Origin: an uncultured Actinomycetota bacterium
GTDB taxonomy: Bacteria; Actinomycetota; Actinomycetes; Propionibacteriales; Nocardioidaceae
Length of the DNA stretch: 64,000 nt
Reading direction: 5' to 3'
Assembly: GCA_963831375.1 (NCBI GenBank)
Contig: CAWHPY010000026.1
Span: 362,627 to 426,626 of the forward strand
The position numbers and the translations under genes are program-made. A model generated the notes under the pieces. That model worked only from the letters and a program-made list of their open reading frames with translations. It searched no databases and had not been told where the DNA came from. Positions 4,261-8,334 of this stretch are shown here, one piece after another. Positions within the stretch are counted from its first letter, which is position 1, and each line of letters begins with the position of its first letter.

Positions 4261-5135
4261 GAACGCGTCGAGGCCCGAGCGGGCTTGTCGTGGCCATGGT
4301 GGTGGCCTTGGCGATCTGTGGTCAACGCGAAGTGCTGGCAGATGACTCCACCGACATCACGGGTCAGGCAGGATCAGACGCCTACGAAATCGTCGGGGAG
4401 GCTGCTGACGATCCCCATATCAGCGAGACCAGCGGAACCGATCCCAATGGTGCGGCGTCCTCAGGAGAACCCGAATTCGCCGAGTACAAGTGGGTCTCGG
4501 CGTGCACTTCTCCGGATACGGTGTCCGACCCGTCAACCGTGCTGGATTGCGCCGCCGCTCGCGCCTGCCCCGATGGTGCGGAGCGCTTGTGGCGACTCTG
4601 GGGTCGAATGCTGCGCCCGGCCGGATGGTCCCTCCTGGGCAGTGAATGCTTTGGGCGGCCACCGACGGTGGGTGACGCACCACAACCCCAGGTCACGCCC
4701 GGGCTGGTGCTCAACGCGATCCGGCGGATCGGGCTGCCGGAGCTCACGGCTCAGACCCAGCCGGCCGACAAGACGCTGGTGAACTTCGCGACGATCTTCT
4801 ACGTCGAGCCTCAACCGTTCGCCCGGACGATCCGGCTCCTGGGCCAGCAGGTTGACGTCGAGGCGAGCCCGTCCGAGTTCACCTGGCATTACGGCGATGG
4901 GACCTCAATGACCACGACGACCCCGGGTGCGCCGTACCCCTCGAAGGAGATCACCTACAGCTACTCGGACGCGCACACGACGGTGAGCCCGAGCGTCGAC
5001 GCCACGTATACCGCTCGGTTCCGGGTCAACGGGGGAGCGTGGCAGGACATCGCCGAGACGGTGACGATCGCGGGACCGACCACGGACCTCCGGATCAGCG
5101 AGGCGACCGCCGTGTTGTCCGGAAGCTACGAGTAG
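4257..5135 (+). CDS. Secreted protein with Cys-containing N-terminal region and C-terminal PKD/Ig-like domain
   Basis: GTG overlaps upstream TGA (GTGA). Signal peptide MRTRRGPSGLVVAMVVALAICGQREVLA. C-terminal FTWHYGDGTS...PGAPYP...Y.ARFRVNGGAW. Confidence 0.8.
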   Translation: MRTRRGPSGLVVAMVVALAICGQREVLADDSTDITGQAGSDAYEIVGEAADDPHISETSGTDPNGAASSGEPEFAEYKWVSACTSPDTVSDPSTVLDCAAARACPDGAERLWRLWGRMLRPAGWSLLGSECFGRPPTVGDAPQPQVTPGLVLNAIRRIGLPELTAQTQPADKTLVNFATIFYVEPQPFARTIRLLGQQVDVEASPSEFTWHYGDGTSMTTTTPGAPYPSKEITYSYSDAHTTVSPSVDATYTARFRVNGGAWQDIAETVTIAGPTTDLRISEATAVLSGSYE

Positions 5136-5173
5136 GCGACGACACCACGCGCAATCCGCATTGCGAGATCGGG

Positions 5174-5202
5174 TTCCATGGCTTGGACGGCTCTGGCAGA
5201 CT
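5174..5202 (+). promoter_or_regulatory. Putative sigma-70-type promoter for a leaderless leader peptide
   Basis: TTCCAT-N17-CAGACT with TG extension; GTG 7 nt downstream. Confidence 0.5.
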
Positions 5203-5209
5203 CGAAGCC

Positions 5210-5242
5210 GTGAACCAGCTCAGCAACATCATTATCAGCTAG
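5210..5242 (+). CDS. Putative attenuator leader peptide MNQLSNIIIS
   Basis: GTG AAC CAG CTC AGC AAC ATC ATT ATC AGC TAG: three tandem Ile codons directly upstream of hairpins and cimA. Confidence 0.75.
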   Translation: MNQLSNIIIS

Positions 5243-5295
5243 CGCGCTAGGAAGACTTGGCGCGCTGACCTCTCGTCCCCACGGGAGGTTTTTTT
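5241..5295 (+). terminator. Attenuator hairpins and intrinsic terminator upstream of cimA
   Basis: AGCGCGCTA/TGGCGCGCT stem (5241-5266), then ACCTCTCGT-CCCC-ACGGGAGGT stem (5268-5289) followed by a T run. Confidence 0.85.
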
Positions 5296-5309
5296 GTTGC
5301 TCGACACCG

Positions 5310-6917
5310 ATGCCGACCGAGGACATGACCGTGACGACCACCGACTTTCATGTGTACGACACGACGCTGCGTGACGGCGCCCAGCAGGAGGGGCTGAACC
5401 TCTCCGTCGCCGACAAGCTGAACATCGCCCGCCAGCTCGACGGTCTTGGGGTCGGATACATCGAAGGCGGCTGGCCGGGCGCGAACCCGAAGGACACCGA
5501 GTTCTTCCGCCGGGCCCAGGAGGAGCTCCAGCTCAAGCACGCGCAGCTCGCCGCATTCGGAGCGACGCGCCGCGCTGGGATGAAAGCCGCCGACGACCCG
5601 CTGATCGCCGCACTCCGCGACAGCGGCGCCGGAGTCGTCACACTCGTCGCCAAGTCGCACGACCGGCACGTCGAGCTCGCACTGCGGACCACGCTCGAGG
5701 AGAACCTCGCGATGATCCGGGACACCGTCACCCATCTGCGCGCGGAGGGTCAGCGGGTCTTCCTGGACGCCGAGCACTTCTTCGACGGCTACCGCGACAA
5801 CCGCGACTATGCGCTCGAGGTGCTCCGCACGGCGTACGACGCGGGGGCGGATGTGATTGCCCTCTGCGACACCAACGGCGGCATGCTCCCGCCCTGGGTC
5901 GGCGACGTGGTCAACGATGTCATCGAGTCCACCGGTGTTCGGGTCGGCATCCACTGCCACAACGACACCGGCTGCGCCGTCGCCAACACGCTCGCCGCCG
6001 TGGACGCCGGCGCCACCCACGTGCAAGGCACCCTCAACGGGTACGGCGAGCGCACCGGCAACGCCGACCTTGTCTCGGTCGTGGCGAACCTCGAGCTGAA
6101 GCTGGGCAAGAAGGTGCTGCCCGACGGGCTCCTCCGTGAGGCAACCCGGATCGCACACGCCGTCGCCGACGTCACCAACTTCCCGCCCGCATCACGCCAG
6201 CCGTACGTCGGCGTAAGCGCGTTCGCGCACAAGGCCGGCCTGCATGCCAGCGCGATCAAGGTCGACCCGAACCTGTACCAGCACATGGACCCGGTCCACA
6301 TCGGCAACGACATGAGGCTCCTGGTCTCCGACATGGCCGGGCGCGCGAGCATCGAGCTCAAAGGCAGGGAACTAGGGTTCGACCTGTCCGAAGACAAGGA
6401 GCTGGTCACCCGGATCACCAACCGGGTCAAGGAGCTCGAGTCGAAGGGGTACACGTTCGAGGCCGCCGACGCGTCGTTCGAGCTCATGCTCGTAGAAGAG
6501 GTCGAGGGCGCCCGTCCGTCGTACTTCGATGTGGAGTCCTGGCGGGTGATCACCGAGACGAAACCGGCGGAGGAGGCGGTCTCCGAGGCCACCATCAAGC
6601 TCACCGCGGGCGGCATCCGGATCATCACGACCGGCGAGGGCAATGGCCCGGTCAACGCGCTCGACCACGCACTGCGGGGGGCGATCGGGCAGGCGTACCC
6701 GGGCGTCGCGAAGTTCGAGCTGATCGACTACAAGGTGCGCATCCTCGACCAGGGCCACGGCACCGATGCGGTGACCCGGGTGCTGATCGAGACCAGTGAC
6801 GGCGAGAGCTCGTGGGTCACCGTCGGCGTCGGTCACAACGTGATCGAGGCGTCGTGGGGCGCGCTCGTCGACGCGGTCACCTTCGGACTTCGTCGCAACG
6901 GAGAGGAACCGCAGTAG
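5310..6917 (+). CDS. cimA: Citramalate synthase
   Basis: [59 protein letters not shown] and a LeuA-type regulatory C-terminus. Start may be 5310, 5325 or 5331. Confidence 0.9.
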
Positions 6918-6954: not shown

Positions 6955-8334
6955 ATGGCAGCGCAGCACAAGATCGAGCTCACCGAGGACGAGATGCCGA
7001 CACGTTGGTACAACGTGCTCAACGACCTCCCGACGCCACCTCCACCTGTGCTGCACCCGGGCACCGGCCAGCCGGTCGGCCCGGATGACCTGACGCCGCT
7101 CTTCCCGATCGACCTGATCCTGCAGGAGGTGTCGACCGAGCAGTACATCGACATTCCCGACGAGGTCCTTGACGTCTACCGGCTGTGGCGACCCAGCCCG
7201 TTGTACCGGGCACATCGCCTGGAGAAGGCGCTCGGCACTCCAGCGAGGATCTACTACAAGTACGAAGGCGTGTCGCCGGCTGGCTCGCACAAGCCGAACA
7301 CCTCTGTGCCGCAGGCCTACTACAACGCCAAGGCCGGCATCAAGAAGCTGACCACCGAGACCGGTGCGGGCCAGTGGGGGACCGCGCTCGCGTTCGCCTG
7401 CGCCCAGTTCGACATGGAGTGCGAGGTGTGGCAGGTGCGCGCGTCGTACGACCAGAAGCCGTACCGGCGGATGATGATCGAGACCTTCGGTGGCACCGTG
7501 CACCCGAGCCCATCGGACCTCACCGACGCCGGCCGGGCGATCCTGGCCGAGCACCCCGACTCCACCGGTTCCCTCGGCATCGCGATCAGCGAGGCCGTCG
7601 AGGTCGCCGCCCAGGACCCGACCACCAACTACGCGCTGGGCAGCGTGCTCAACCACGTGCTCATGCACCAGACGATCATCGGCGAGGAGGCGCTGCTCCA
7701 GCTGGCCAAGATCGGCGAACAGGCCGACCTCCTCGTGGGATGCACGGGCGGCGGGTCCAACTTCGGCGGGTTGATGTTCCCGTTCCTGCGGGAGAAGTGG
7801 GCAGGGCGGATGAGTCCTACGGTGCGCGCCGTCGAGCCGGCGGCCTGTCCGTCACTGACGCAGGGCACCTATGCGTACGACTTCGGGGACACCGCGGGAA
7901 TGACGCCGCTGATGAAGATGCACACCCTCGGCCACGACTTCATCCCCGACCCGATCCACGCCGGCGGTCTGCGCTACCACGGGATGAGCCCGCTGATCAG
8001 CCACCTGTTCGAGGAGAAGGAGATCGAGGCGGTGGCGAAGCCACAACTTGAGTGCTTCGCGGCCGGGGTGCTGTTCGCCCGGACGGAGGGGATCGTTCCG
8101 GCGCCGGAGCCCACGCATGCCCTCGCTGCTGCGGTCGACGAGGCGCTGCGGTGCAAGGAGACGGGTGAGGAGAGGGTGATCCTCACCGCGCTCTGCGGTC
8201 ACGGCCACCTCGACCTACCGGCCTACGACGCCTATCTGTCCGGCAAGATCGTCGACCACGACTGGGCGGACGCGGACATCCAGAGTGCCGTCACGGATGC
8301 CCTGTCCAAGCTGCCCATCCTCGCGCAGCAGTAG
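6955..8334 (+). CDS. trpB2: TrpB-like PLP enzyme (stand-alone tryptophan synthase beta, TrpB2 type)
   Basis: [53 protein letters not shown]; GGAGG RBS. Confidence 0.9.

What the first reader, a model, noticed from the sequence alone, without database searches (positions are those of the whole stretch)
5174..5310. Probable isoleucine-sensing attenuator with a leaderless leader peptide upstream of citramalate synthase
Seen: TTCCAT-N17-CAGACT, GTG 7 nt later, a 10-codon ORF MNQLSNIIIS with ATC-ATT-ATC (ATT is rare in such a GC-rich genome), a hairpin overlapping the stop (5241-5266), and an intrinsic terminator (5268-5295) 15 nt before cimA. Established: CimA with LeuCD/LeuB makes 2-oxobutanoate for threonine-independent Ile synthesis, and tandem regulatory codons plus a terminator define ribosome-mediated attenuation. 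Inference: Ile-specific control of cimA. Actinobacterial attenuators are described for ilvB and leuA; I do not know whether a cimA one has been described. I could not identify the antiterminator pairing with confidence.
Basis: partly seen in the sequence, partly recalled or inferred. Interest (0 to 1): 0.7.

Follow-up and report, generated by a model that had tools for sequence, protein, structure and literature searches.

The report
Isoleucine-sensing leader attenuator of cimA
A ten-codon mini-gene ending in three isoleucine codons, followed by two back-to-back RNA hairpins (the second a transcription stop signal), sits in front of the citramalate synthase gene and is conserved across many actinobacteria; it most likely switches this isoleucine-pathway gene on when isoleucine is scarce, but it lacks the competing RNA fold that textbook switches of this kind use.

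Summary
The parts are an extended -10 (TGGCAGACT, 5194-5202), GTG 5210, the ORF MNQLSNIIIS* (ATC-ATT-ATC), a 12-bp hairpin starting at the stop codon (5240-5267), an abutting terminator with U7 (5268-5295), and then cimA (TIGR00977).

The same layout occurs in 28 of 30 orthologous loci of the order, 56 of 80 sampled cimA loci of the class, and 9 of 60 from the rest of the phylum. These 93 loci share several features:
- ATT is present in 89, against 1.3% of Ile codons genome-wide.
- UAG is the stop in 70.
- The last Ile codon lies 4-6 nt before the hairpin base in 71.
- The spacer between hairpin and terminator is 0-1 nt in 87.
- The start looks leaderless in 85.

Both hairpins covary. No overlapping antiterminator exists: folding predicts the terminator in every ribosome state, and only hairpin 1 changes (intact when the ribosome stalls on Ile, melted when it reaches the stop).

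My reading is an Ile-sensing ribosome-mediated attenuator in which the abutting hairpin blocks the terminator sterically. This matches the "tug-of-war" antitermination recently shown for riboswitches. I found no paper describing a cimA leader. Earlier follow-ups in this scan found the same device on other DNA several times.

The parts
5156..5177 (+). Conserved promoter-upstream block CCGCATTGCGAGATCGGGTTCC (GAGAY box at about -45, GGTTCC at about -35). It may be an operator, an UP-like element or a -35 element.
   Evidence: Consensus CCGSATYGCGAGAYCSGGTTCC in the same-genus loci. GAGAY lies 26-50 nt upstream of the -10 in 34 of 85 loci, including other families. Function was not tested.
5192..5202 (+). 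Extended -10 promoter element TCTGGCAGACT (T-N-TG-N-CANACT).
   Evidence: Anchored on the hexamer across 85 loci, column frequencies are T 78%, T 93%, G 92%, C 80%, A 71%, C 76%. TG lies within 3 nt upstream of the hexamer in 78 of 85. The strict TTGACA/TATAAT scan does not call it.
5210..5242 (+). Leaderless leader ORF GTG...TAG, MNQLSNIIIS*. The start codon lies 7 nt after the -10, so it is probably the transcript's 5' end.
   Evidence: Sequence. Orthologous ORFs are modally 8-10 codons with a variable N-terminus and a conserved I-I-(I)-X-stop end. Hexamer-to-start spacing is 6-7 nt in 75 of 85 loci.
5228..5236 (+). Regulatory isoleucine codons ATC-ATT-ATC.
   Evidence: At least one ATT in 89 of 93 leaders. 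ATT accounts for 114 and ATC for 106 of the leader Ile codons, against ATT at 1.3% genome-wide. The assembly has a single tRNA-Ile(GAU) gene, which reads both codons.
5240..5267 (+). Hairpin 1 (12 bp, AAGA loop), whose 5' arm starts at the UAG stop codon. I propose it acts as a non-overlapping, steric antiterminator.
   Evidence: Folds; -17.9 kcal/mol alone. Covariation is seen in 5 of 9 pairs. There are 89 distinct sequences of 22-77 nt, yet the base always lies 2-10 nt after the last Ile codon, and 4-6 nt in 71 of 93.
5268..5295 (+). Intrinsic terminator: stem 5268-5276/5281-5289, CCCC loop, U7 at 5289-5295. G5267 can pair with either U5240 or U5290.
   Evidence: -13.5 to -14 kcal/mol alone. 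8 of 10 pairs show changes on both sides, and 97.7% of cells are paired. The spacer to hairpin 1 is 0 nt in 78 and 1 nt in 9 of 93 loci.
5319..5323 (+). Shine-Dalgarno sequence GAGGA of cimA.
   Evidence: Sequence. CCGAGGA followed by 7-9 nt and a start codon is conserved in orthologues.
5331..6917 (+). cimA, (R)-citramalate synthase. The probable start is GTG 5331; the open frame reaches back to ATG 5310.
   Evidence: TIGR00977, 645.3 bits, cut-off 450. Orthologues are present in 41 of 41 relatives, 130 of 161 genomes of the class and 113 of 151 of the phylum sample.
6955..8334 (+). TrpB-like PLP enzyme gene, 37 nt after cimA with no terminator between them. It is probably co-transcribed and so under the same attenuator.
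   Evidence: NF009057, 728.6 bits. The same gene follows cimA in 15 of the 23 other same-genus loci. Co-transcription is inferred.

Best explanation
This is an isoleucine-sensing, ribosome-mediated transcription attenuator of cimA, and probably of cimA plus the trpB-like gene.

Transcription starts at or next to GTG 5210 from an extended -10 promoter, and a 70S ribosome translates the 10-codon leaderless ORF.

When charged tRNA-Ile(GAU) is scarce, the ribosome stalls with ATC/ATT/ATC (5228-5236) in its A site. Its leading edge then stops just short of hairpin 1, which stays folded. Hairpin 1 abuts the terminator with a 0-1 nt spacer. [quoted passage not shown] Polymerase therefore reads through into cimA.

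When Ile is plentiful, the ribosome moves two more codons to UAG and unwinds the 5' arm of hairpin 1. The terminator's 5' flank becomes slack single strand, the terminator folds, and transcription ends at the U7 tract.

Shown here: the anatomy, its conservation, the covariation of both hairpins, the conserved spacings and the codon bias. Inferred: translation of the ORF, the TSS, the response to Ile and the steric ('tug-of-war') step. My confidence that this is an Ile-responsive leader-peptide attenuator is about 0.85. My confidence in the steric mechanism as stated is about 0.5. The value given below is for the whole statement.
For: Anatomy and statistics come, and cimA identity.

Conservation: 28 of 30 loci in the order, and 93 of 170 sampled cimA upstream regions overall (28 order, 56 of 80 class, 9 of 60 phylum).

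Evidence for coding:
- The frame is always kept.
- The N-terminus is free to vary.
- Ile is kept through ATC/ATT swaps.
- An in-frame start follows an NANNNT hexamer at 5-8 nt in 85 of 93 loci, against 12.5% for controls.

Sensor design:
- ATT occurs in 89 of 93 leaders, against 1.3% of Ile codons in the genome.
- The assembly has one tRNA-Ile(GAU) gene.

Geometry:
- The gap from the last Ile codon to the hairpin base is 4-6 nt in 71 of 93 loci (shuffled 17%).
- The spacer from hairpin to terminator is at most 1 nt in 87 of 93 loci (shuffled 32%).
- This holds although hairpin 1 has 89 distinct sequences of 22-77 nt.

Masked folding: hairpin 1 is intact with the A site on any Ile codon, has 8 bp at Ser, and 5 or 0 bp at the stop. 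The terminator is predicted in all states.

Covariation: 93.8% of cells are paired against 85.4% in shuffles, and 104 cells show double changes against 28.9; 0 of 500 shuffles reach either value.

Mechanistic precedent:
- For the M. tuberculosis ilvB1 leaderless uORF, a ribosome at the stop codon is proposed to mask the antiterminator, which forms when the ribosome stalls upstream (PMC13236596).

The ilvB leader of the same genome (MRFDILVRTRRVS, with ATT-CTT-GTA) has the same abutting hairpin and terminator.
Against:
- Thermodynamic folding shows no switch: the terminator is predicted in every state. Regulation therefore rests on a steric and kinetic effect that I cannot compute.
- In the tug-of-war preprint, a simple upstream hairpin had a clear effect only on the weakest terminator tested. 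This terminator is moderate (-13.5 kcal/mol here, median -17.6 across loci).
- In Streptomyces coelicolor, mutating the putative regulatory codons of the ilvB leader had no effect on regulation (Craster et al. 1999, as reported in PMC1262725). Actinobacterial leaders therefore do not always behave as drawn.
- The S. lividans TK24 TSS study lists eight leader peptides and none for cimA.
- The counts are over related genomes and are not independent.
Confidence: 0.55

Rival explanations
1. This is a classical four-segment attenuator whose overlapping antiterminator I failed to recognise, for example a pairing that involves the invariant terminator 5' arm ACCUCUCG.
For: The terminator 5' arm (GACCUCUCG) is more conserved than pairing alone requires, while the 3' arm varies between CGGGAGG, CGAGAGG and CGAGGGG. 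This could hint at a second partner.
Against: No complement of ACCUCUCG occurs in the transcribed leader. Folding the nascent RNA up to 5268-5280, and folding with ribosome masks, yields only hairpin 1 and the terminator. The one candidate long-range helix (5223-5228 with 5295-5300) shows no co-variation: own against cross-locus duplex energy is -7.81 against -7.64, p = 0.99. It also lies beyond the U tract.
Confidence: 0.08
2. This is an Ile attenuator, but hairpin 1 serves only to pause RNA polymerase and synchronise it with the ribosome. Read-through would then be decided by something else, such as direct ribosome-polymerase contact, NusG/NusA, or the timing of ribosome release at UAG.
For: Leaderless initiation needs time, so a pause hairpin about 10 nt before the terminator loop would be useful. 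UAG, which is read by RF1 only, is the stop in 70 of 93 leaders against 19.6% genome-wide, which suggests that dwell time at the stop matters. In the tug-of-war preprint, NusG modulates such switches in B. subtilis.
Against: A pause role does not explain why the spacer to the terminator is 0-1 nt in 87 of 93 loci while hairpin length varies from 22 to 77 nt. It also does not explain how a stall 60 nt upstream would otherwise reach the terminator.
Confidence: 0.2
3. The conserved AUU-containing stretch and hairpins form an RNA element read by a protein, a tRNA or a metabolite (riboswitch-like or T-box-like), and the ORF is not translated.
For: There is nucleotide-level conservation of AUCAUUAUCAGCUAGCGCGC within the order. 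No direct evidence of translation exists.
Against: No Rfam family matches (best hit 21 bits against a gathering score of 50). The element is too small for a T-box. Across the class, what is conserved is in-frame Ile codons, with ATC/ATT interchange and runs of 1-4. The start codon lies at a fixed distance from the -10, and a stop lies at or inside hairpin 1. This is the signature of a reading frame, not of an aptamer.
Confidence: 0.05
4. There is no regulation. The short ORF plus terminator is an independent small transcript or a leaky constitutive terminator, and cimA is expressed from elsewhere.
For: No experimental data are available. The strict promoter scan finds nothing in 4900-5600.
Against: Only 35 nt separate the U tract from the cimA start, and they hold an SD but no conserved promoter. 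The element is tied to cimA in 93 loci across the phylum and occurs once in this genome.
Confidence: 0.04

Closest known systems
Actinobacterial leaderless leader-peptide attenuators of ilvB(N)C, namely the C. glutamicum ilvBNC leader, S. lividans ilvL (MRTRILVLGKRVG) and the M. tuberculosis ilvB1 uORF (PMC8079986, PMC11857589, PMC13236596)
   Same: Both have a leaderless short ORF with regulatory branched-chain codons, followed by hairpins and a U-tract terminator in front of a branched-chain amino-acid gene. In the Mtb model, a ribosome at the stop codon masks the antiterminator and a ribosome stalled upstream lets it form. This is the same geometry as found here.
   Different: The target gene is cimA, and the sensor is Ile only (1-4 Ile codons, nearly always including the rare ATT) rather than a multivalent I/L/V sensor. 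The published models draw mutually exclusive antiterminator and terminator folds. Here the two hairpins share at most one nucleotide. No paper in the searched library mentions a cimA leader.
Enterobacterial leader-peptide attenuators (trpL, hisL, leuL, thrL, ilvL, ivbL); textbook knowledge
   Same: A ribosome reads runs of codons for the end-product amino acid, and its position decides whether an intrinsic terminator acts. Rare synonymous codons are used as sensitive sensors, as with CUA in leuL (my own knowledge).
   Different: Those have an SD-led ORF, four segments with an overlapping 2:3 antiterminator, and termination as the outcome when the leader is not translated. Here the ORF is leaderless, there are only two non-overlapping hairpins, and read-through is the predicted outcome without translation.
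'Tug-of-war' (TOW) transcriptional riboswitches: synthetic ones and about 10% of natural ZTP riboswitches (Bushhouse, Fu & Lucks, bioRxiv 10.64898/2026.06.17.733018)
   Same: A stable RNA structure lies 0-4 nt upstream of an intrinsic terminator, shares no sequence with it, and suppresses termination. The effect is lost as the spacer lengthens. The cimA leader has a -18 kcal/mol hairpin 0-1 nt from a -13.5 kcal/mol terminator.
   Different: There the upstream structure is stabilised by a ligand. Here it would be left intact or unwound by a ribosome. The preprint does not consider leader peptides. Simple hairpins gave smaller effects than aptamers.
pyrBI / pyrE attenuators of E. coli (my own knowledge)
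   Same: There is no alternative RNA fold, and a ribosome's physical position relative to the terminator decides termination.
   Different: There the leader ORF runs up to or over the terminator, and the signal is polymerase speed (UTP). Here the ORF ends 28 nt before the terminator, and only the closed hairpin 1 brings the ribosome close to it.
Mycobacterial polycysteine leaderless uORFs (Canestrari et al. 2020, bioRxiv 10.1101/834739)
   Same: These are leaderless short ORFs with runs of one amino acid's codons that control the biosynthetic genes downstream in Actinobacteria.
   Different: They are reported to act on operonic gene expression without a canonical U-tract terminator (Seliverstov 2005 also found no terminators there). 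The cimA leader has a canonical, highly conserved one.

Membership tests
Ribosome-mediated leader-peptide transcription attenuator | A short upstream ORF enriched in codons for the end product of the regulated pathway | tested here: met
   MNQLSNIIIS has 3 Ile codons among its last 4 sense codons. An Ile run or an ATT codon is conserved in 93 cimA leaders. CimA opens the pyruvate route to Ile (TIGR00977; pathway role from established knowledge).
Ribosome-mediated leader-peptide transcription attenuator | The ORF is translated | not testable with these tools
   Support is indirect only. The frame is conserved, Ile codons exchange synonymously, and the start codon lies at a fixed 5-8 nt from the -10 in 85 of 93 loci against 12.5% for controls.
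Ribosome-mediated leader-peptide transcription attenuator | An intrinsic terminator lies between the leader ORF and the structural gene | tested here: met
   A 9-10 bp G+C-rich stem followed by U7 at 5267-5295. It is conserved, with 8 of 10 covarying pairs.
Ribosome-mediated leader-peptide transcription attenuator | An antiterminator helix that shares nucleotides with the terminator (mutually exclusive folds) | tested here: not met
   Hairpin 1 (5240-5267) and the terminator (5268-5289) share at most G5267. The terminator is predicted in all ribosome-masked states and no alternative pairing was found.
Ribosome-mediated leader-peptide transcription attenuator | Read-through rises when the cognate charged tRNA is limiting | not testable with these tools
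   This needs a reporter assay, Term-seq or northern data with and without Ile limitation.
Tug-of-war (non-overlapping, steric) antitermination | A stable RNA structure lies immediately upstream (0-4 nt) of an intrinsic terminator, with no sequence overlap | tested here: met
   The spacer is 0 nt in the window and at most 1 nt in 87 of 93 loci, with a maximum of 5 (shuffled segments: 32% at most 1 nt). If only the G/C core of the terminator stem is counted, the spacer is 2-3 nt, which is still within range.
Tug-of-war (non-overlapping, steric) antitermination | The signal changes the stability of the upstream structure | tested here: inconclusive
   In silico, a ribosome with its A site on an Ile codon leaves 11-12 bp of hairpin 1, and one at the stop leaves 5 or 0 bp. 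The 4-6 nt gap from Ile to hairpin is conserved in 71 of 93 loci. This is a geometric argument, not a measurement.
Tug-of-war (non-overlapping, steric) antitermination | Antitermination is lost when the spacer is lengthened | not testable with these tools
   This needs spacer-insertion mutants. The comparative data show only that evolution keeps the spacer short.
Any Rfam family (including T-box and known leader families) | A match at or above the family's gathering score | tested here: not met
   The best hit in 4900-5600 is Atu_C8 at 21.1 bits against 50 (E = 0.15). No T-box or leader family matched.

The most novel reading that the evidence does not exclude
The cimA leader may be a natural, ribosome-gated 'tug-of-war' attenuator. 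In this reading a hairpin that shares no nucleotides with the terminator acts as the antiterminator purely by abutting it. A stalled ribosome parked 4-6 nt from its base preserves it and adds bulk, and a ribosome at the stop codon removes it. The ilvB leader of the same genome and published 'two-hairpin' actinobacterial leaders look alike. This could therefore be the general architecture of amino-acid attenuators in Actinomycetota, with default-ON logic opposite to the enterobacterial paradigm.
Probability: 0.4. Interest if true: 0.75.

Novelty: new variant of a known kind. Interest (0 to 1): 0.6.

Why it matters
Leader-peptide attenuation is a textbook mechanism that is defined by competing RNA folds. 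Here a widely conserved attenuator, seen in 93 loci across the phylum, controls an undescribed target: the entry enzyme of the threonine-independent isoleucine route. It has no competing fold. Its conserved features are spacings (Ile codons to hairpin, hairpin to terminator) rather than pairings.

This gives a natural, minimal system of about 86 nt for testing whether nascent RNA structure, and perhaps a stalled ribosome, can block an intrinsic terminator sterically. That idea has only just been shown for engineered and ZTP riboswitches. It would also explain why earlier surveys of actinobacterial leaders reported 'missing attenuator components'.

On the practical side:
- It flags a regulatory element that genome annotation and Rfam miss.
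- It marks cimA, and here a trpB-like gene, as Ile-controlled.
- It offers a compact Ile-responsive part for high-G+C hosts.

Tried and rejected
1. I looked for a classical antiterminator. I searched by eye, folded the nascent RNA truncated at 5268-5280, and folded with six ribosome masks. None appeared.
2. The MFE fold suggested a long-range helix closing the leader (5223-5228 GCAACA with 5295-5300 UGUUGC), and it seemed to covary in a few loci. I rejected it: own-locus duplex energies are no better than cross-locus ones over 93 loci (p = 0.99), and its 3' strand lies beyond the termination point.
3. A permissive Rfam search of 4900-5600 found nothing relevant.
4. The strict sigma-70 scan found no promoter. 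The promoter is supported by conservation only.
6. I scanned the organism's own genome for further leaders with a TG-extended -10, a 6-7 nt spacing, a short ORF and a strong U-tract terminator. Only the cimA leader was returned. The terminator core sequence is unique in the genome. The ilvB leader was found separately and has a weaker -10.
7. I checked that my group definition did not presuppose the counted features. The spacing filters removed none of the 93 loci selected on Ile codons plus a terminator.
8. Literature searches for a cimA or citramalate leader peptide, attenuator or uORF returned nothing pertinent.
Full report
**What is there**

TTCCAT lies at 5174-5179, followed by 17 nt and CAGACT at 5197-5202. 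The hexamer is preceded by TGG, which makes it an extended -10. Seven nucleotides later comes GTG at 5210.

The ORF is GTG AAC CAG CTC AGC AAC ATC ATT ATC AGC TAG (MNQLSNIIIS*, 5210-5242). A 12-bp hairpin follows (5240-5251/5256-5267), and its first pair uses the U of the stop codon. Directly after it comes a 9-10 bp G+C-rich stem (5268-5276/5281-5289) with seven U (5289-5295).

The terminator scan finds this site. The 91-nt leader folds at -37.4 kcal/mol, 4 s.d. below shuffles. The gene behind it is citramalate synthase (TIGR00977, 645 bits, cut-off 450). Its likely start is GTG 5331, 8 nt after GAGGA, rather than ATG 5310. This places the terminator about 35 nt before the gene. No Rfam family matches.

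**Conservation**

cimA orthologues were found in 41 of 41 relatives. In 28 of the 30 loci fetched, 6 of them from other families of the order, the upstream region holds the same device:
- TGGCAGACT or TGGCACACT, then 6-7 nt, then GTG or ATG.
- An 8-14 codon ORF whose N-terminal part varies freely and which ends I-I-(I)-S/T/N-stop.
- A hairpin beginning at the stop.
- ACCUCUCG...CGRGRGG followed by a U tract.

I then sampled the phylum, where cimA is present in 113 of 151 genomes, and the class, where it is present in 130 of 161. From these I fetched 140 more upstream regions.

A script selected loci only on two criteria: Ile codons near the end of a short frame, and a terminator within 90 nt. 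It found the layout in 93 of 170 loci: 28 in the order, 56 of 80 in the class sample and 9 of 60 in the rest of the phylum. Where it is missing, cimA mostly sits inside an operon. These genomes are related, so the counts are descriptive and not independent trials.

**Evidence that the ORF is a reading frame and a sensor**

In 85 of 93 loci an in-frame start lies 5-8 nt after an NANNNT hexamer, and in 75 of these the spacing is 6-7 nt. For start-like triplets elsewhere in the same regions the figure is 12.5%. The hexamer is TG-extended in 78 loci. ORFs are modally 8-9 codons.

Isoleucine is the only conserved residue. It is encoded by ATC or ATT interchangeably, in runs of 1 to 4. Even lineages that keep a single Ile codon keep ATT, for example MRTTLCITS* and MTSPLLIP*.

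At least one ATT occurs in 89 of 93 leaders, and ATT makes up 114 of 220 leader Ile codons. In 876 long ORFs of this genome it is 1.3%. The assembly holds one tRNA-Ile(GAU) gene. ATT is therefore read by wobble by the same tRNA as ATC. I infer that this makes it a slower and more starvation-sensitive codon, as is known for the rare Leu codons of the enterobacterial leu leader (my own knowledge).

The stop is UAG in 70 of 93 leaders, against 19.6% genome-wide.

**The structure and what does not exist**

Both hairpins are supported by covariation on a 61-sequence alignment:
- 93.8% of cells are paired, against 85.4% in shuffles.
- 104 cells show changes on both sides, against 28.9.
- 0 of 500 shuffles reach either value.
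- Slid registers pair only 39-63% of cells.

There is no overlapping antiterminator. I folded with the RNA masked up to the ribosome's unwinding boundary. This boundary is about +11 from the first P-site nucleotide (established knowledge). The terminator is predicted in every state. Only hairpin 1 changes:
- 11-12 bp with the A site on any of the three Ile codons.
- 8 bp with the A site on Ser.
- 5 bp at the stop, and none if the full footprint is masked.

A long-range helix suggested by the MFE fold (5223-5228 with 5295-5300) shows no co-variation and lies beyond the termination point. I rejected it.

**Spacings are the conserved feature**

Hairpin 1 has 89 distinct sequences and ranges from 22 to 77 nt. 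Two distances nonetheless stay fixed:
- Its base lies 2-10 nt after the last Ile codon, and 4-6 nt in 71 of 93 loci (17% in shuffled segments).
- Its 3' end lies 0 nt (78 loci) or 1 nt (9 loci) from the terminator stem, with a maximum of 5 nt (32% at most 1 nt in shuffles).

If only the G/C core of the terminator stem is counted, the spacer is 2-3 nt.

In 19 loci, including large genomes that look like streptomycetes, the UAG has been lost and the frame runs 4-10 codons into hairpin 1 (…IIGRRAG*). The distance from Ile to hairpin is still kept. The conserved logic is therefore as follows. A ribosome stalled on Ile stops just short of hairpin 1. A ribosome that passes the Ile codons unwinds it.

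**Mechanism**

For the regulation to make biological sense, an intact hairpin 1 (starvation) must mean read-through. Hairpin 1 shares no nucleotides with the terminator, so the effect must be steric or kinetic.

Structures of paused complexes, as cited in the preprint below, indicate that the RNA exit channel cannot hold two secondary structures. A rigid helix joined without slack to the base of the terminator's 5' arm should therefore hinder closure of the terminator's lowest pairs.

This effect has just been demonstrated. Bushhouse, Fu and Lucks (bioRxiv 10.64898/2026.06.17.733018) report the following:
- The effect fades as the spacer lengthens.
- About 10% of natural ZTP riboswitches work this way.
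- They call it 'tug-of-war' and do not discuss leader peptides.

The ribosome logic matches the model proposed for the M. tuberculosis ilvB1 leaderless uORF, in which a ribosome at the stop masks the antiterminator (PMC13236596).

I therefore read the cimA leader as a ribosome-gated tug-of-war attenuator. In the preprint, plain hairpins had modest effects on strong terminators. The stalled 70S ribosome, which sits 4-6 nt from the hairpin base and is brought next to the terminator by the closed hairpin, may add to the block. That part is my inference. One consequence is that an untranslated leader should read through. This is the opposite of the enterobacterial default.

**Caveats**

- Nothing here measures transcription or translation.
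- S. coelicolor ilvB leader mutants did not behave as attenuation predicts (reported in PMC1262725).
- The S. lividans TSS study lists eight leader peptides but none for cimA.

**What is known**

Leaderless leader peptides before ilvB, leuA, trpE and several tRNA synthetase genes are described in Actinobacteria. Searches for cimA or citramalate together with leader peptide, attenuator or uORF returned nothing pertinent.

Notes of this scan show that the same cimA leader has been met repeatedly on other DNA. Several follow-ups on actinobacterial examples also noted two back-to-back hairpins without a competing fold. One of them led me to the Mtb paper.

My verdict is a real, strongly conserved element. 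It is a new variant of a known kind of regulator and has a testable, unusual mechanism.

Noticed in passing
G000 contig C26, about 351,680-351,790 (some 11 kb upstream of the window start; locus L171 around 1,240-1,350): The ilvB gene of the same genome has its own leader, ATG CGT TTT GAC ATT CTT GTA ... (MRFDILVRTRRVS*). Its I-L-V codons are all rare (ATT, CTT, GTA). A hairpin follows (GACGCGU...ACGCGUC) and abuts a U6 terminator with no spacer, which is the same two-hairpin design as the cimA leader.
   Followed up: partly
window 6955-8334 (+): A TrpB-like PLP enzyme gene (NF009057, 729 bits) follows cimA after 37 nt with its own SD and no terminator. The pairing recurs in 15 of the 23 other same-genus loci but not in the other families. 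It is probably co-transcribed, so an enzyme of unclear role would be under isoleucine control.
   Followed up: partly
window 5156-5177: There is a conserved block CCGSATYGCGAGAYCSGGTTCC just upstream of the extended -10. The GAGAY box at about -45 recurs in 34 of 85 leaders, including other families (for example ATCCTGAGAC in the large streptomycete-like genomes). It may be a binding site for a transcription factor, which would add a second layer of control.
   Followed up: partly
loci L032-L034, L094, L103, L106, L113, L121, L127, L128, L138, L143, L150, L154: In this variant leader the UAG at the hairpin base is lost and the ORF continues 4-10 codons into hairpin 1, giving peptides that end ...IIGRRAG* or similar. 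The distance from Ile to hairpin and the hairpin-terminator abutment are unchanged.
   Followed up: partly
loci L095, L100, L102, L105, L131, L163, L098, L153: Some lineages keep only one isoleucine codon in the leader, and it is ATT every time (for example MRTTLCITS*, MTSPLLIP*). A single rare wobble-read codon may be enough as the sensor.
   Followed up: no
locus L023 (G001) and locus L020 (G024): There are two same-genus exceptions. L023 has no leader or terminator before cimA, because a different upstream gene ends close by. L020 has a different 13-codon peptide, MNTEIGVITEMIE*, with three dispersed ATC codons but the same hairpin and terminator.
   Followed up: no
window 5310-5333: The longest open frame of cimA starts at ATG 5310. 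However, the SD (5319-5323) and the orthologue N-termini (MTTT...) point to GTG 5331. Automatic annotation may over-extend the gene by 7 codons.
   Followed up: partly
G000 C27:211642-212274 and C4:266980-267798: The best matches to the two-domain threonine dehydratase model TIGR01124 are well below its cut-off (221 and 141 bits against 411). The organism may have only a short-form or catabolic-type threonine dehydratase, which would make the citramalate route its main source of 2-oxobutanoate.
   Followed up: no
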